NCBI GenBank assembly: GCA_964016885.1
Contig: OZ024744.1
Span: 80,848,001 to 80,912,000, forward strand
Length of the DNA stretch: 64,000 nt
Direction of reading: 5' to 3'
DNA from: Eledone cirrhosa
Lineage: Eukaryota
In this document: positions 826-59,744 of the stretch, in pieces
Layout of the letters: every line of letters begins with the position of its first letter
How positions within the stretch are numbered: position 1 is the stretch's first letter
The notes under the pieces: generated by a model
The model's input: the letters and a program-made list of their open reading frames with translations, nothing else
The model's database searches: none
What the model was told of the DNA's origin: nothing
Made by a program: the position numbers and the translations under genes

Positions 826-2664
826 ATTTTCATCATCATCATCATCATCATCACCGTTTTACGTCCGTTCTTCCACGCTAGCATGGGTTAGACGGGTTGT
901 CCTGTTGTGGGCAGTGTCTGGTCGGCTGACCATGCCTTGCTCATACAGGAACTGATCTGGCTTGATTTCTACAGCTGGATGCCCTTCCTAACACCAACCT
1001 CATTTACAGTGAGTGCTGGGTGCTTTTTCGTGGCGCCTACACGTCCACTTTACAGTGTGGGCTGGGTGCTTTTTTGCCGTGGCACCTCCACGACCACCTT
1101 GCGGTGGGGGGGGGGGGGGGCATATTGTTTATATGCTTCAGCATGTACCCATGGGAGGTCGGGTACCCTGTATTACTGCGTGACGCCAGAAGTCACGGTC
1201 GTGTGTCATTGACTTTGAGAGGTGTAGTTGGGTAAGGTCGGCTTTTATCACCTCATCCCAAGTCATCTTGGGTCTCCCCACTCCGCGGTTTCCATCAACT
1301 TCTAGTGCTCTGCACCTTTTTATGCAGCTGTCATCCTTCATACGCATCACATGTCCATACCAGCGTAACCGCCTCTCCTGCACGCAGCATTTGATTCCTC
1401 TTATGCTCAGTCTCTCTCTCAATTCATTTATGCTTTGTCGTTCACGTATATTACTGTTACACATCCATCGGAGCATGCAGGCTTCGTTTCTCTCTAATCT
1501 ACGTAAGTCTTCCACCTTCAGCGCCCAGGTCTCACTACCATGCAACATCGCTGTTCGGATACACGCATCATACAGTCTGCCTTTCATTCTGAGGGAGAAG
1601 CCTTTTGCAGCTAGCAGTGGTAGTAGTTCCCTAAACTTCTTCCATCCCGTTCTTACCCTAGTTATTGTACTTTCTGAGCACCCACCTCCGTTGCTAATTC
1701 GGTCACCTAGGTAGCAGAAGCTGTCTACTGTTTCTACAGGGCCCTCCCAGAGATTGGTGGTACTTGTTTCCTGTGGCTGTTTGCTTGCTGTTTCAGCACA
1801 GCTGCTGCATGTGAATCCTACATTCTTAATTAAGCTTCCTGAGATCCCGCTACATCTCTTGTGTACCCATTGTTTGCATTTGGGGCAAAGAATGGAGTTC
1901 CTACCTACACCTTTCCTACATACTGAGCAAGGCCATTTCCCTGAGGGGATCTGGGTTCTGTTTTCTCGTCTACTTATAAGGACCTTAGTCTTTGTCATGT
2001 TGACTTTGAGGCCCTTTCTCTCTAGTCCCTGCTTCCAGGTTTGGAATTTATTCTCTAGTTCTACCATAGATTCAGCTATGAGTGCGAGCTCATCAGCATA
2101 CAGGAGTTCCCATGGGCATCCGGTCTTAAACTCCTCCGTTATTGCCTGCAGGACTATGATGAACAGGAGAGGGCTAAGAACAGAGCCCTGGTGGACCCCA
2201 ACCTGTACGCTAAATTCCTCGCTATACTCATTGCCAATCCTAACTTTGCTGACTGCTCCCCTATACATGGCTTGTACCGCTTTCACAAGCCATTCATCTA
2301 CTCCTAGTTTTCTAAGAGCCCACCAGATTACTGCACGTGGAACTCTGTCAAAGGCTTTCTCAAGGTCGACAAATGCCAAGTAGAGTGGCTTACTTTTAGC
2401 TAGGTACTTTTCCTGTAATTGCCTCACAAGGAAGAGCGCATCAGTGGTGCCTTTCCCTGGAACAAACCCAAATTGCATCTCGTCTATATTCACCCGGTCC
2501 CTAATCAGCTGTGCTATAACTCTTTCTGTTACTTTCATGACCTGGTCCATCAACTTTATACCTCTATAGTTTCCTCTATCTAGTGCATCGCCTTTACCTT
2601 TGTAGCAGTTGACAATGATGCTACTGCACCAATCTTTTGGTATGGCCCCCTCTAGTATTACCTG
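826..2664 (-). mobile_element. 5'-truncated RTE-clade LINE (RT, C-terminus, 3' UTR, (ATG)n tail)
   Basis: ORF 1138..2553 has RT motifs QFGF, FVDLEKAFD, GVHQGSVLSPLLF and YADE, then YLG and the RTE C-terminal RRLRWYGHV and GRPKMTW. The 3' UTR and tail match those of the copy at 18800-20925. Confidence 0.93.
1138..2553 (-). pseudogene. Reverse transcriptase ORF (RTE LINE), catalytic YADD changed to YADE, contains C4HC3 PHD-like finger
   Basis: 471-aa ORF translation. The sister copy has YADD at about 19661-19672. Confidence 0.85.
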
Positions 2665-2973
2665 ATAGAATTTCTTCTGTCGTCAGTAAATATCTCAACA
2701 AGCATGGTGCCATACAGTCCATATCACATCCTTTAGTTTAATTTAATTTTTTATTCTTTTCGGTTTCAAAGATGGTGGATTATTACTAAACCTATTTACA
2801 GTGTGACAACAAATCAAGGGGACCTATTCTTTTGTTACAAGGTCAACACGTGTTTCTTACTATCAAATTATGTTTTTAAATGACAAGAGCAAGAGAAATG
2901 AAGAAAAGCAACAAGAGAAAATACGGAATGTCAGAATTAAAAGCAATCTTTTCTAAACTATTATGGCCGTAAA

Positions 2974-17865: not shown

Positions 17866-17944
17866 CCCTTACTGATCAGTTTCGCTTTGTAAAACCTCAT
17901 AAATCCGATGGATTTATGATGGAAAACCAAAGCTCATCAGAGAA
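17866..17944 (-). ncRNA. Type I hammerhead ribozyme, family D copy 1
   Basis: Minus strand reads ttct-CTGATGA-GCTTTG..TCATAAATCC atc GGATTTATGA..CAAAGC-GAA-ACTGATCAGT-A-aggg. Confidence 0.85.
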
Positions 17945-18350: not shown

Positions 18351-18429
18351 CCCTTACTAATCAGTTTCGCTTTGTAAAACCTCATAAATCCGATGGATTT
18401 ATGATGGAAAACCAAAGCTCATCAGAGAA
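18351..18429 (-). ncRNA. Type I hammerhead ribozyme, family D copy 2
   Basis: Same as copy 1, with stem III ACTGATTAGT (G-U wobble preserves pairing). Confidence 0.85.
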
Positions 18430-18661: not shown

Positions 18662-20925
<2,264 letters not shown>

Positions 20926-22749: not shown

Positions 22750-24060
22750 TGTATGGAACATAACTTAACAAAGGTTCTTACGTTACATCTTGACAGGCAG
22801 TTTTTAGATGTATATAGATACTTTAAAACAAACAGTGAAGAGGCTGACATAATATCTACATTCTCAAACATAGATAACAACATAAGATTTACTAATGAAC
22901 ACCCAATAAAAATGGTCCCTTGTCCCTGCTGGACTTCCAGCTTAGAATAACAGAAGGAGCTATATATACCAACGTCTATAGGAAAGCTGCCAGTAGAGAC
23001 CTGTTTCTGTATTATAGATCAGCCCTTTCCCTAGGTGCTAAAATCGGATACATAAAAATTGGACTTACGTGTATCCGGAATAAATGTAGTAAAACAGAGA
23101 ACCACAGGACTCACACTGTCCACTTTATAGATGTACTGAAGCCGAACGGATACCCAACATCCCCAGTGAATCGTAGGAATCAAAGGTGCTGCAGACCTAA
23201 GGCCCCCTCTAACACCTGCTTAATGAAAGTACCACACCTCAGTAAAAGCATAACCACAGCTATCTGCAGAGCTATCCACAAAGAAGGACTGGGCATACAA
23301 TTAGCACACTCCAGCCCTTCACTGGATGGATACCTATCTAAAAATAAATCCAGAGACAACTGCTATCAATGCTCACTGACTAACTGCCCTAGCTGCGATA
23401 CAGGTATGTGCCAGCAGACACATATGGTATACCAGATTGAATATAACAAATGTAATGCGTTCTACATTGGTAGCACAACTCGAGCACTCCACACTCACAT
23501 TAAAGAACACTTCAATCACACACATCTTCTTTAAAAAAAAACACATTGACAAATGCAGAAACACCAACAAAAATATATTGAAGCCAGAGAAGAAATGTGG
23601 GTAATTTAAGAATTAAGGAAGCCTTGCTCATACATAGACTCAACCCACAAATCAATAACAGATTAGAACTTAGCACCCAATATTTAACATAAAAGGACAC
23701 ACCCACACGCAACCTAAACAACATCTCATACAAGAAAATTGATTCCATGAAATATTACATCGGCAATTGACATCATCCTCCAGTTTCTCGTAAATAACAA
23801 AGCAAACATCAAACAGCGTTTGAAAGTAGTTTATAAATTTTAAATTTAATTCCAAAGAGAAAAAAAACAGAATATTTTTCTCCGAGAATTCTTTATACTC
23901 TGAAGAAGGGTATTTTAAGTCCTGAAATATTAGGACAAAAGAAACAACTGCAACTGCAACAAAAACAAAACAAAGATTACCAGGTAACTAACTTTGTCAT
24001 TACCTTCATCTTACTGTCCAATTTGCATTATTTAGCCTTATATCACTTTCCACATTATAT
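22750..24060 (+). mobile_element. Penelope-like element remnant (RT thumb, GIY-YIG endonuclease, 3' region)
   Basis: Translation includes NIRFTNE, SLLDF..TNVYRKA..Y.SA and C..THMVYQIE..KCNAFYIGSTTRALHTHIKEH. Confidence 0.85.
23898..23934 (+). ncRNA. Minimal, degenerate hammerhead in PLE 3' region
   Basis: CTGAAGA-AGGG tattttaag TCCT-GAAA-TAT-TA-gg. Stem I is weak. Confidence 0.5.
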
Positions 24061-28319: not shown

Positions 28320-29406
28320 TATGATGTAGTGGGATCACAGGTAAGCTAACTAAGAACATAGATTTTACATGTGGCCGGTGTTCTGGTGCAATAAGTAGCA
28401 GCAAGTGCCCACACAATACTAGCTCTTTCAATTGCGCAGAGGGTTCTATAGAAATAGTGGACAGCTTCCGTTACCTGGGCGATAAAATCAGCAGTGGGGG
28501 AGGGTGCTCTGAAAGTACTGTAGCTAGAGTCAGAACTGGTTGGAAAAAGTTCAGAGAGCTTATACCACTATTAGCTGCTAAAGGGTTCTCCCTAAAAATG
28601 AAAGGCAGGTTGTACGATGCCTGCATACGAACAGCAATGTTGCATGGCAGTGAGACCTGGGCATTGTGTGCAGAGGATATACGCAGACTAGAGAGGAACG
28701 AAGCTTGCATGCTCCGCTGGATGTGTAACAGTAATATACGTGAACGGCAAAGCATAAACGAACTAAGGAAAAAATTAGAGATAAGAGGGATCAGATGTTG
28801 TTTACTCGAGAGAAGGCTACGTTGGTATGGACACGTGATGCGCATGAAAGTCGATAGCTGTATAACAAAGTGCAGGGCAATAAAGATAGACGGTAGCCAC
28901 GGAATAGGCAGACCTAGAAAAACCTGGGACGAGCTGATAAACTCCGACCTCACACACTTACACCTCTCCAAGACAATGTCACTGGACCGAGACCTTTGGC
29001 GGTACTCAGTAACAGAGAAGACCCGCCTTGCCAGTAGGCATCTCTAACAAAATACACCCCGTCCCACCACCACCACCCCCACCCCATCCACACCACCCCG
29101 TCCTATGTAAAGTTATGTTGGTGCCGCGCCATCCGGGCCGAAACAAATGAGATCGTGTAGGTGTCACGACAAAAAAACACACAGTCCACGCTGTAATGTG
29201 GCCGTGTAGGCAACACGGTAAAAACCTCCCAGACCCACACTGTAAATGTGGTTGGTGTTAGGAAGGGCATCCAACTGTAGAAAACCTGCCAGACAGTCCT
29301 ATGCGAGCAAGACAATCACTCTTGCCTCAAGTGGGACTACCCCCGTCCAAACCCATGCAAGCGTGGAACACGGACGTTAAACGTTGATGATGATGATGAT
29401 GATGAT
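28320..29406 (+). mobile_element. 5'-truncated RTE LINE 3' end
   Basis: ORF 28457..29047 is highly similar to the C-terminus of ORF 1138..2553. (ATG)n tail. Confidence 0.9.
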
Positions 29407-37685: not shown

Positions 37686-37858
37686 TTATACTGTTCACTG
37701 TCATGAGTTGCCAATAGATTTTACAACCAAGTTCTGCAACAAAGCTTTCATTCTTTTACTTTGTCTTGATCAATCAAGACAAAGTAAAAGAATGAAAGCT
37801 TTGTTTCAGAACTTGGTTGTAAAATCTATTGGCAACTCATTGACAGTGAAAAGTATAA
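37686..37858. repeat. Near-perfect palindrome, about 85-bp arms, 2-nt loop
   Basis: ...ctttgtcttgat-CA-atcaagacaaag..., centre at 37771-37772. Confidence 0.92.
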
Positions 37859-38173: not shown

Positions 38174-39539
38174 TCTATACTATAAAGCTGACGGCCGTAT
38201 GTAGGTAACAAACTTTCCGCCAAACGGCTGGACCAAACAGCACCAAATTTGCACCATAGATGTAACTTTTTCCAAGTAAAAATGTGAGGGCATTTTTGTC
38301 TACTGAAGTTTGTTAAAAGATTAAAGATATTATTTAAATATTCATTTCTTTAACATTTCAAATGTCAACACTTCCGGTTATACATTATTCCTCACTTTTT
38401 CTTATGACGTTGCACAACATTCCCCCCTTTTTCTTATTCTGTATGTCTGGCTGTCTGCATTAGATAACGTTTTTCGAAAATATTTACTTTTGCGTTCACA
38501 GACTCAGTTTTTAAGTTTCAGAAGATCCCGTTAAAGGTGAAAGCAGCGATTCTTTGCTTAAACTTTAATCTGTTATTTTAATATACAGATATTTTTGCAT
38601 ACACAAAAACAAAAACCTATTTATTTCATGAAAGCACAGATGGCTTATCGTCATTGTTACTGTTCGAGGTTAGAGGACCACAGTCTTTCCAAGATCTGAG
38701 AACCATCAATGGCCATCAATGTTCCACTTACCATTTGGCTTGCCAGATGCGTGGTATGTTACACGATGACAGCCATTGGCACCTCACTCTGCAAGAAGCA
38801 ACAACTGTTAAAGTCCCTTCTCAGCTGCGAAAACGTTTTGCTATTATGCTGCACAACTGCGATCTCACCGACCCTCTCGCACCGTGGAACAAACACCGCG
38901 AAAGTCTAGCTGAGGAAATTCTCCACCGCACACGCAGACACAATCCAAACGTAACATACAATGTCGTTGTCAATGAGACGCTCATTTATCTTGAAAACAG
39001 TGTTCTGGAGATTGGTGGTAGGCCTTTAAGTCACTACAGCTTACCTGCTCCTGACAGGAGTGTCCAGAGGTCAACGTCTACAGAGCTTCTCCATGAGATG
39101 AACTACGAGAATAGTACTTCTCCCATGGTCAATTGTATGTAGGATGCTCTACAGTGAGCTCGCCAAACAATCCCTTCATCTTTGTTCCGGATGGCCGAAC
39201 AAAAAATATTGTATACTCTGAGGCTCTGACAATGAAATTTAAATATTTTCTGTTACTTGGAATTTCCATTATGGTTGTATAAATTATTGTTTCTAAAAAA
39301 TGTGTTCTCTGTTCAGCCTTTATTGTTGTAACTATCAATCTTCTTTAACATACTGGATACTGAACTGGGGAATCCTAAAAACTATTCAAACCCAACAGAG
39401 CACGTTAAGCCCCTCCCCCACCCCACCCTCACTGACTTGAGAGGGCTAGCGGCATCTTTGCACTAGAGTGTAGAGGGGATTCCTGAAAAGATAAGATGCC
39501 GGTATACCTAGCTAGGCGCCAGCTGGACAGGCCAGCTAG
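38174..39539 (+). mobile_element. Internally deleted Helitron
   Basis: A|TC 5' end, 3' hairpin followed by CTAG|T. ORF 38654..39142 matches the RepHel linker (LL..VRGPQSFQDLRT.NG..TY..AC..RG.L.DD..W). About 39120-39230 encodes the helicase C-terminus HGQLYVGCS..TKNIVYSEAL. Confidence 0.88.
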
Positions 39540-39963
39540 TTCACTGATAAATATGAAAAAATTTTTAATTTTTAATTTTGTCTAGCATTTGAATTCAACA
39601 GTTTTTATTCTCCCCTCTATTTTATCCGTTCCTTTTCCTCTTCTTCGTTTTTATTTATTCCCCTTCTTTTTTTTCTTTTTTCTCCCCACATCTTCCCTTT
39701 CTTTTGTTTTTATTCCCCTTCTTCTCTCTCTACATCTCTTTTTTTCTTCTTTTCTTCATTTATTTATTTATTTATTTATTTATTTATTTGTTTATTTCCC
39801 TTCTTTTTCTTCGCATCTTCCTTCTCAACTCCCCTTCTATATTTCTACCTTGCTCTACGTCCTCTTCTTCTCTAAGCTTATCATATTATTTGTGGTATAA
39901 ATCACTGCCACTATTGGAATTGAATAATTAAAACCGTAGCAGTATGTCACATATCCGATCTCT

Positions 39964-40034
39964 TATATATTTTATCTGATGAAAACGTACTTAAACACCA
40001 TTGTACCTTTGAAATATGTATAATAAAATATATA
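39964..40034 (+). ncRNA. Type I hammerhead ribozyme, family F
   Basis: 12-bp stem I TATATATTTTAT/ATAAAATATATA, core CTGATGA, stem II AAAcGTAC..GTACcTTT, GAA-ATATGTAT-A. Confidence 0.85.
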
Positions 40035-40088
40035 TTTTGATTATAAGAATATTTTTCATTTATTAATATTTTGAATAATATATATATA

Positions 40089-40176
<88 letters not shown>

Positions 40177-42092: not shown

Positions 42093-42167
42093 GCTGTGAT
42101 ACATATTTCAATGAAGTCAGTGGCCATGTGATTTCTCACATCCAGTGTCATAATCTCATCAGACAGC
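42093..42167 (-). ncRNA. Type I hammerhead ribozyme
   Basis: Minus strand reads GCTGT-CTGATGA-GAT..(ATGTGA gaaa TCACAT)..ATT-GAA-ATATGTAT-C-ACAGC. AATAAA at 42081-42086. Confidence 0.8.
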
Positions 42168-55560: not shown

Positions 55561-56487
55561 CATCATCATCATCATCATTTTACGTCCGCTCTTCCCTGCT
55601 CGCAAAGGTGGGACGGGTCTTATTCAGCACAGCATCTCTCCACTCGTCATGGTCCTTCGTCATCTCCACTGTGAGCTTCAAAGATCTGAGGTCTGTTCTC
55701 ACCACCCCCGCCCATGTTTTTCGTGGTCTACCTCTACCATGTCTTCCTTCAACTGGCATTTCCTGGCACTTCTTCACCCATCGGTCATCCTCCATGCACA
55801 TCACATGTCCATACCACCTCAGTCTCCTCTCCCGTACACTACATTCTATCCCTCTCAGACACAATTTCTCTCTCAACACATTCATGCTGGGTCGTTCATG
55901 CACATTTACACTGCACATCCAACGGAGCATGCTTGCCTCATTTCTCTCCAGCCGTCGCATATCCTCTGCAGTTGCTGCCCATGTCTCACTACTATGCAGC
56001 ATCACGCTCCTCACACAGGCATCATACAACCGGCCTTTCGTATGCAGGGAGAAACCCTTCTTCATCAGCAGAGGAGGCAGCTCCCTAAACTTCTTCCAAC
56101 CCGTCCTTATTCTAGATACTATGGCCTCGGAATCCCCCCCCCTCCCATGCTAATCTGATCTCCTAGGTACCGGAAGCTATCCACCACTTCTATAGCACCC
56201 TCCTGCATTTGAAAAATGTGTCTATCAATGCGACTTCTACTGTCTAATTTCCCTGTACATCTACTGCATACATATTTCTCCCTACCTGTTAGTTTGCCTG
56301 CTATCCCACTACATCTCTTGTGTACCGAGGATCTGCATCGTGTGCATTTTATAGAATTTATGCCAGTTCCTTTTCTGCATATCGAACATGGCCATTTCCC
56401 TGACGGAATCAGGGTTTTGTCCTCTTTTCTACTCATCAACACTTTTGTCTTAGCTAGGTTCACTCTCAGTCCTCTTGCTTCCAACTG
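55561..56487 (-). mobile_element. 5'-truncated RTE LINE 3' end (related subfamily, with PHD-like finger)
   Basis: ORFs 56119..56484 and 55580..56065. (ATG)n tail. Confidence 0.9.
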
Positions 56488-56558: not shown

Positions 56559-57097
56559 TATATTAATAAAAGGAATTCCAACTTTGTCTGACTTACTCGT
56601 TTTATTTACAATCCTTTAACATTTATAATGGTATTAGAATGAAATAGTATGGTAGAATATTAAATGTTAAGTGTTAATTGAACGGTGTGTACAAAGGGCA
56701 AGGACATGATTGACGCGGGCTGATGACCCCCGCCTACCGGGAATTCCTCGTTCACAGGGTTGGTTCCAAGCCCCGATCCCTATCACAGGAGGTGGTTCAG
56801 AGGTTTCCCGACCCTCTCAGGCTGGGGAAGTGGCGCCCGCTGATACCTCCAGTGTAGCGCGCGTGCGGCCCCGGACATCTAAGGGCATCACAGACCTGTT
56901 ATCGCTCCACCTCATGCGGCTTTCTGCCGCCCGTCCCTCTAAGAAGCGCTGCGTTCGCCAACCGACTGGCCCGTTCAATTAACACTTAACATTTAATATT
57001 CTACCATACTATTTCATTCCAATACCATTATAAATTTTAAAGGATTATAAATAAAACGAGTAAATCAGACAAAGTTGGAATTCCTTTTATTAATATA
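56559..57097. repeat. 127-bp inverted repeats (56559-56685 and 56971-57097) enclosing an 18S fragment
   Basis: Arms are reverse complementary with about 4 mismatches by manual alignment. Confidence 0.92.
56683..56970 (-). pseudogene. 18S rRNA 3'-region fragment (about 285 bp)
   Basis: Minus strand carries universal SSU motifs CTTCTTAGAGGGAC, AACAGGTCTGTGATGCCCTTAGATGT, GCCGCACGCGCGCTACACTG, AACGAGGAATTCC and CCCTTTGTACACACCG. Confidence 0.95.
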
Positions 57098-59450: not shown

Positions 59451-59539
59451 AGTCAATTGACTATCCGGGAGCTTCCAACAGAAATGGTCGTATTCTTTAA
59501 GGGTATGTCAATATTTATTTATAAAACTGATCTATATTA

Positions 59540-59604
59540 TATTTTATCTGATGAAAGCGCACCATAATTTGCCTTGGTGTCCTTGAAATATGTATAATGA
59601 AATA
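59540..59604 (+). ncRNA. Type I hammerhead ribozyme, family F copy 2
   Basis: TATTTTAT-CTGATGA-AAGcGCACCA..TGGTGTcCTT-GAA-ATATGTAT-A-ATGAAATA. Confidence 0.85.
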
Positions 59605-59744
59605 AATATGGTTTTATAAATATAGTTTCCATTTGTTAATATATTGTATTTTTACTCCAATAATTTGTTGAGTGCTTTATAATAGTTATAAAAATATTTG
59701 CTTGTTGTATCCCAACAAATTAAATATAACTTCTACATATATAT

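What the first reader, a model, noticed from the sequence alone, without database searches (positions are those of the whole stretch)
39964..40034. Family F: two diverged hammerheads showing covariation
Seen: relative to 59540-59604, the core and stem III (ATATGTAT) are identical, while stem II changes from AAA/TTT to AAG/CTT and from GTAC/GTAC to GCACCA/TGGTGT, keeping a C-C mismatch. Stem I A-U becomes G-U. Flanks are only loosely similar. Inference: structure-level purifying selection, the best internal evidence that these motifs are functional RNAs.
Basis: partly seen in the sequence, partly recalled or inferred. Interest (0 to 1): 0.7.

Follow-up and report, generated by a model that had tools for sequence, protein, structure and literature searches.

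The report
Covarying hammerheads of Hydra-type Penelope retrotransposons
The two motifs are real hammerhead-ribozyme folds at the ends of two subfamilies of a Penelope-like jumping gene, among about 82,000 such motifs in this genome; their paired changes show that the fold was kept during the element's evolution, likely because two ribozymes pair up to cut the element's own RNA, while these two truncated copies are likely inactive.

Summary
Observation confirmed. Both motifs are type I hammerheads in the pseudo-LTRs of Hydra-clade Penelope-like retrotransposons. The core pattern has 82,093 genomic matches against 176 for the control. Two copies alone give only two double changes. Across 16 multi-copy subfamilies, 158 of 160 stem cells pair, the C·C mismatch holds in 16 of 16, and a tree-aware test is beaten by 0 of 250 nulls. 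The centre of stem III varies only among TA, TG and CG, as a double hammerhead would need. Selection acted on active master elements; private mutations in copies are not significantly rarer in the fold (p=0.13), and both window copies lack the ORF. Cleavage is untested: 0 of 345 copies end at the cut site, and copy B runs from the likely capped RNA start through it. Copies end just before either of two conserved hairpins, one of each in 36 of 36 classifiable inverted pairs; the scan had noted this before on other DNA of this genome. Known kind (Cervera 2014, Craig 2021); new families.

The parts
39540..40080 (+). Copy A: 5'-truncated Hydra-clade Penelope-like insertion (end of 3' UTR plus pseudo-LTR), short 3' end, followed by (TA)n
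   Evidence: shared start 39540, ends near 40077-40081; same subfamily lies about 1.2-1.3 kb downstream of the GIY-YIG domain in longer copies
39896..39907 (+). TATA-like box and initiator-like CACT (A at 39904); the spacer between them is about 24 nt shorter here than in other copies; likely the element's promoter
   Evidence: promoter role inferred
39964..40034 (+). Type I hammerhead A; predicted cut after 40022
40014..40021 (+). Self-complementary stem III of A (centre TG), predicted to pair with a second hammerhead
40080..40170 (+). (TA)n target microsatellite
59459..59736 (+). Copy B: stub from the likely RNA start (A59460, preceded by a G where long copies have C) through the hammerhead to the long 3' end, followed by (TA)n
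59540..59604 (+). Type I hammerhead B; predicted cut after 59596
59654..59676 (+). First of two bulged hairpins of the 5' UTR (outer stem ACTC/GAGT, 3-bp inner stem, 2-nt bulge); short copies end 0-9 nt before it
59650..59736 (+). Tail: the part of the 5' UTR present only in long-end copies; it stops just before where the second hairpin lies in full-length relatives
42093..42167 (-). Third, more diverged hammerhead of the same type (same stem III, H17 = C, longer stem II)

Best explanation
The two motifs are type I hammerheads in the pseudo-LTRs of two subfamilies of a Hydra-clade Penelope-like retrotransposon, and their covariation records selection on the RNA of past active elements, where the upstream and downstream hammerheads likely pair through the palindromic stem III and would cut the full transcript. 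Shown: the element context; the hammerhead both about 200 nt before the ATG and after the 3' UTR; the covariation; two fixed 3' ends beside two hairpins. Inferred: transcription starts 72-89 nt upstream of the core; the enzyme starts copying internally at the two hairpins, one per cut DNA strand, into (TA)n. Uncut capped RNA gives short stubs such as copy B. Inferred with less support: double-hammerhead cutting yields a unit RNA whose ends are held or joined, which puts both hairpins downstream of the ORF and so allows full-length copies with a new upstream promoter. The two window copies are likely dead.
For: Context: RT plus C-terminal GIY-YIG with Hydra motifs upstream of subfamily A hammerheads; B aligns along its whole 240 nt to the 5' UTR of ORF-bearing relatives and sits beside Hydra ORF fragments in L253, L216, L067; 26 of 60 copies picked by their ORF start have an intact hammerhead 180-213 nt before the ATG. 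Covariation: 158/160 cells paired in 16 subfamilies of 3 or more copies, 26 of 28 branch changes keep pairing, summed score 56.5 against a null maximum of 27.5; with all 73 clusters 301 against 64, and pair 10.3-11.3 at E<0.004 (similar). Core tested without selecting for it: in 33 copies picked by ORF start, 0 of 12 core columns have a second state in 4 or more copies, against 12 of 13 loop columns, 6 of 14 stem II columns and N7. Dimer: subfamily consensus centre TA 8, TG 7, CG 1; genome counts TR 82,093, CG 1,376 in whole subfamilies, CA 378 and NY 510 scattered over subfamilies; the double hammerhead is 11.6 kcal/mol more stable than two monomers with a 2-bp stem III, for both A and B. Ends: 36/36 classifiable head-to-head pairs are long plus short; 112/145 short ends and 27/33 long ends lie from 9 nt before to 1 nt into the two hairpins; 7 of 8 copies ending exactly at the initiator A have a G before it. 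Internal starts at two sites and a protein-assisted hammerhead were shown for a lizard PLE (PMC11167929).
Against: No cleavage evidence: 0 of 345 copies end at H17 and 5' ends of 60 near-full copies do not pile up at it. In PMC11167929 ribozyme mutants did not change insertion in vitro and no RNA ends were found at the site. Naiad PLEs thrive without canonical hammerheads (PMC8557442). Most single pairs are not individually significant (only 10.3-11.3 below E 0.05). In 10 of 16 subfamilies pair 10.1-11.1 is A-U rather than the usual G-C. The predicted minimum-energy fold of A is not the hammerhead, and for B competing folds are more stable than the double hammerhead. The strongest palindromic centres GC and AT were not seen as a consensus in the sampled subfamilies, although one search lists a few AT copies of one diverged family. 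No full-length subfamily B element was found.
Confidence: 0.85

Rival explanations
1. Same identity, but the cut only trims the read-through 3' end of the transcript. Full-length copies arise when the enzyme runs off the capped 5' end and jumps to the repeated pseudo-LTR at the 3' end, as in LTR elements, with no circle.
For: Stubs end at the likely RNA start with an extra G, like strong-stop DNA; the start-to-hammerhead segment is repeated at both ends of full copies.
Against: Needs displacement of the cDNA without RNase H (recalled: PLE RTs lack it); does not by itself explain a palindromic stem III.
Confidence: 0.25
2. The fold is kept as a protein-binding or RNA-dimerisation structure and catalysis is vestigial.
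For: No copy ends map to the cut site; A-U at 10.1-11.1; invariant C·C; ribozyme mutants insert normally in vitro in PMC11167929.
Against: The conserved positions are exactly the 12 catalytic-core positions while N7 is free and H17 is never G in 73 cluster rows.
Confidence: 0.12
3. These genomic copies have been co-opted by the host and cut host transcripts.
For: Both cores are intact; private substitutions are somewhat fewer in the core (6/933) than in flank and loop (113/8999), p=0.11.
Against: Both copies are 95-100% like many dispersed copies, so intact cores reflect youth; the difference is not significant; isolated copies lack a partner in cis.
Confidence: 0.04
4. The covariation is a mutational by-product of hairpin-templated correction in DNA or cDNA.
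For: Inverted repeats can homogenise without selection (established knowledge).
Against: Such correction would remove the C·C mismatch, which holds in 16/16 subfamilies; G·U intermediates are common; stem I arms are 47-49 nt apart; the unpaired core is the most conserved part.
Confidence: 0.03

Closest known systems
Hydra clade of C-terminal EN+ Penelope-like elements (Craig et al. 2021, PMC8557442; section 11, passages and supplementary Files S1, S2, S7 read), including Hydra-1_Obim
   Same: CxCX5C linker, DKT, RW-basic motif, CxxC and CxH, (TA)n targets, type I hammerhead near the 3' end, inverted 5'-truncated arm, one-sided tail; similar bulged hairpins are visible by eye in the tail or 5' UTR of the printed Amil, Ajap and Crog consensus sequences.
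   Different: Different families: the Hydra-1_Obim hammerhead differs in all three stems; none of the 26 Hydra rows of File S2 has the ATA-NN-TAT stem III or an internal C·C in stem II; tail about 90 nt rather than 30-40; about 82,000 motifs.
Metazoan PLE hammerheads (Cervera and de la Peña 2014, PMC4209133; parts 1-2 of 4 read)
   Same: Located in pseudo-LTRs, mostly solitary in truncated copies, consensus families with covariation, palindromic helix III, proposed dimer, cut-and-circle model.
   Different: Here helix III is 8 nt and its centre covaries as an intermolecular pair; G10.1-C11.1 is not conserved; stem I reaches 8-12 bp.
Poseidon element PAc of Anolis (Frangieh et al. 2024, PMC11167929; parts 1-2 of 4 read)
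   Same: Two internal start sites that define the tail; both DNA strands primed; hammerhead upstream of the start sites.
   Different: [quoted passage not shown]
Non-LTR retrozymes (Cervera and de la Peña 2020, PMC7229834, passages; Li et al. bioRxiv 10.64898/2026.07.22.740005, part 1 of 5)
   Same: Type I hammerheads in very high copy number (126,247 in axolotl), dimer-dependent cleavage in amphibians.
   Different: Retrozymes are tandem 150-450 bp non-coding repeats; these are dispersed ends of a coding element.

Membership tests
Type I hammerhead ribozyme | Core CUGANGA and GAAA...UH conserved, N7 free, H not G | tested here: met
Type I hammerhead ribozyme | Three helices with stem I open, supported by covariation | tested here: met
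   summed score above 250 of 250 nulls; one pair individually significant
Type I hammerhead ribozyme | G10.1-C11.1 pair (usual, not universal) | tested here: not met
   A-U in both copies and in 10/16 subfamilies; published Hydra rows also vary here
Type I hammerhead ribozyme | Self-cleavage after H17 | not testable with these tools
   genomic ends do not mark the site
Double (dimeric) hammerhead | Short self-complementary stem III whose centre keeps intermolecular pairing | tested here: met
   the x-y pair alone was not significant
Hydra-clade PLE | Single ORF with RT then C-terminal GIY-YIG | tested here: met
   read directly from translations; Pfam did not detect these domains
Hydra-clade PLE | CxCX5C linker, DKT, RWK-like motif, CxxC and CxH, no CCHH | tested here: met
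   by eye against section 11; RWH or RWR in place of RWK
Hydra-clade PLE | Insertion into (TA)n; hammerhead near the 3' end; inverted arm and tail | tested here: met
Hydra-clade PLE | Placement in the Hydra clade on an RT tree with reference elements | not tested
   reference proteins were only in a paper supplement and were not loaded
Hydra-clade PLE | Subfamily B linked to its own full-length ORF | tested here: inconclusive
   adjacent ORF fragments and close kinship to ORF-bearing subfamilies; no full copy found
Non-LTR retrozyme | Short head-to-tail tandem units, non-coding | tested here: not met
   dispersed or head-to-head copies tied to an ORF

The most novel reading that the evidence does not exclude
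In these Hydra elements the two pseudo-LTR hammerheads form an obligate double hammerhead, so only a complete transcript is cut and closed into a ring; a dimeric enzyme then starts at two tandem 5' UTR hairpins, one per DNA strand. Uncut capped RNA gives the tens of thousands of stubs and the ring gives full-length elements. The invariant C·C would be a new tertiary contact. This would explain why PLEs keep hammerheads, and their tails and head-to-head arms, in one cycle.
Probability: 0.3. Interest if true: 0.72.

Novelty: new member of a known kind. Interest (0 to 1): 0.4.

Why it matters
The role of hammerheads in Penelope-like elements is stated as unclear in PMC8557442, and the one in vitro study read found the ribozyme dispensable for insertion. 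This genome holds about 82,000 motifs in dozens of subfamilies, enough to read selection position by position. It yields testable points: a stem III centre that keeps intermolecular pairing, an invariant C·C, two hairpin-marked start sites, and a likely capped start upstream of the cut. The two window copies themselves are ordinary dead insertions.

Tried and rejected
Rfam scans found no hammerhead or other fitting family in the window or in two full 5' UTR loci. Pfam missed the Hydra proteins. No RNA holder was listed for copy B; laying four contig sets added nothing on expression. The idea that cleavage sets the 3' end was rejected (0/345); that it sets the 5' end was not supported (about 4 of 60 ends within 12 nt of the site, two of them blurred by TA repeats). 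The one hit for a full-length B copy was a chance match in flanking DNA. One search's shared-upstream lengths were confounded by inverted arms and are not used; one search stopped after subfamilies A and B. The motif 2 row was mis-indexed and is replaced. One search dropped 7 of 64 clusters by hand (no stem II, shifted or deleted); one search dropped none by hand. Core invariance is built into the search pattern and is not counted as evidence. Loci are not a random sample: many come from the start of contig 1, from CG, CA and NY searches, or from best BLAST hits. The null model is my own substitution-shuffling test, not R-scape. Paper searches found no paper on these families; in PMC8557442 and PMC3846280 'hairpin' did not occur in the main text. 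Subscription journals and bioRxiv supplements were not searchable.

Full report
Observation. From A (39964-40034) to B (59540-59604) there are two double changes in stem II, two changes to G·U, an unchanged C·C, and identical core and stem III. A third motif of the same type lies at 42093-42167 on the minus strand. Rfam reported no hammerhead family.

Abundance. Each motif belongs to a dispersed repeat: 1,399 candidates for A and 122 for B, with best hits 93-100% identical. A pattern for the shared core gave 82,093 matches against 176 for the control. The first 100 listed places were sparser (about 9 per Mb against a mean of 27), so I checked 17 arbitrary 10-kb regions: 4 matches in 170 kb, in line with the mean. 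The genome is 3.0 Gb and rich in microsatellites; that it is a cephalopod is my guess and was not tested.

What the repeat is. [quoted passage not shown] These motifs match the Hydra clade as defined in section 11 of PMC8557442, whose File S2 lists hammerheads for Hydra elements. The RT segment has 45,324 candidate places, of which 150 were scored. L248 is a full element: inverted arm, upstream pseudo-LTR, ORF, 3' UTR, hammerhead. Of 60 copies picked by their ORF start, 26 have an intact hammerhead 180-213 nt before the ATG. Subfamily B aligns over its whole 240 nt to such 5' UTRs and lies beside ORF fragments in three places; no full B copy was found.

Covariation. I clustered 280 distinct copies. 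In the 16 subfamilies with 3 or more copies (200 copies), 158 of 160 cells of ten proposed pairs are standard pairs, and on the tree 26 of 28 changes keep pairing, 8 of them double. The summed APC-corrected G score was 56.5 (null mean 0.3, maximum 27.5, 0 of 250). With all 73 clusters it was 301 (null maximum 64); the five top-ranked of 496 column pairs are all proposed pairs, but only 10.3-11.3 is individually significant. One search, on 57 rows with two nulls, agreed. C·C at 10.4/11.4 held in 16 of 16 subfamilies and 55 of 73 clusters. Because those sets were selected by the core, I tested the core in 33 of the 60 ORF-selected copies that extend past it: identity 0.98 and no second state in 12 core columns, against 0.63 and 12 of 13 columns in loop II.

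Level of selection. Within subfamilies A and B (36 and 42 copies), private substitutions were 36/3890 in the fold and 113/8999 in flank and loop (p=0.13); core alone 6/933 (p=0.11). Variants shared by sub-lineages fell in flank and loop (17) and once in stem II, where B's G·U alternates with A-U. This fits selection on masters and drift in copies; weak selection on copies is not excluded.

Dimer. As a monomer stem III can form only 2-3 bp. As a duplex of two copies all 8 positions pair if the centre is self-complementary. Subfamily centres were TA 8, TG 7, CG 1. Genome-wide, CG (1,376) marks whole subfamilies, while CA (378) and centres ending in a pyrimidine (510, stricter pattern) are scattered single changes in the first 100 listed. 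The double hammerhead is 11.6 kcal/mol better than two monomers, but competing folds are similar or better. PMC4209133 proposed such dimers and found low activity in vitro.

Ends. Copies stop about 50 or about 140 nt after H17, next to (TA)n; none of 345 stops at H17. Of 42 head-to-head pairs, 36 were long plus short, none long-long or short-short, and 6 had an arm of another class. The tail is the start of the 5' UTR. Each end lies just before a copy of one bulged hairpin: 112 of 145 short ends and 27 of 33 long ends that could be aligned. Its inner stem pairs in 111 of 123 cells, against 46 and 38 when slid. Similar hairpins are visible by eye in published Hydra consensus sequences. I reached this before looking; earlier scan notes report the same in this genome. 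PMC11167929 showed two internal start sites for another PLE.

RNA start. Following a lead, I mapped 5' ends. In A and B many lie at or just after an initiator-like CACT 72 and 89 nt upstream of the core (10 of 29 within 0 to +8; 17 of 37 within -2 to +10; the queries favour copies that reach this far). Seven of 8 copies ending exactly at its A have a G before it, as a copied cap would give. Copy B is one of them, so its template was likely uncut at the hammerhead. 5' ends of near-full copies do not gather at the cut site.

Mechanism. Long ends stop before hairpin 2, so a single inserted element has no hairpin 2 downstream of its ORF. Yet ORF-bearing arms with long ends exist (L100, L102, L103, L104, L241). 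Their template must have had the 5' UTR after the 3' UTR: a ring, a tandem, or a jump between the repeated ends. A double-hammerhead cut of the complete transcript followed by closure would supply this and explain why the core is kept; I give this step about 0.4, the jump about 0.25. The identity and the level of selection I put at 0.85.

Verdict. Real and well supported, but a known kind: new families of Hydra-clade PLE hammerheads. Interest 0.4, for the position-level constraints and the testable cycle.

Noticed in passing
window 17870-17940 and 18355-18425 (-): Two near-identical hammerheads of another family, 485 nt apart in a direct repeat, with a 10-nt palindromic stem III differing at one centre base; could form a double hammerhead in cis.
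   Followed up: partly
window 22899-23534 (+): Decayed fragment of another Penelope-like element with a weak GIY-YIG match (E 0.024).
   Followed up: partly
window 37688-37856: Long near-perfect hairpin of about 170 nt.
   Followed up: no
window 56750-57042 (-): Fragments resembling 18S rRNA, below the gathering score.
   Followed up: no
window 38582-39142 (+): 186-aa frame that I recall as Helitron-like; no Pfam match. It lies just upstream of copy A.
   Followed up: partly
window 1138-2682 (-), 18973-19635, 28325-29047, 55580-56149: RTE-type LINE fragments; the first has RVT_1 and a PHD finger.
   Followed up: partly
L287, L256, L248 5' UTRs: A long helix joins the tail to the stretch just before the ATG and differs between subfamily groups while keeping pairing; it may gate translation or the second start site.
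   Followed up: partly
L143-L166 and listing: Another abundant hammerhead family with a 9-nt stem III appeared as a by-product of the pattern search.
   Followed up: no
L249 409-1582: Four hammerheads of one family in a tandem plus inverted array with a 10-nt palindromic stem III.
   Followed up: no
L011, L016, L017, L035, L042, L103: Different subfamilies are often nested in each other's (TA)n runs.
   Followed up: no
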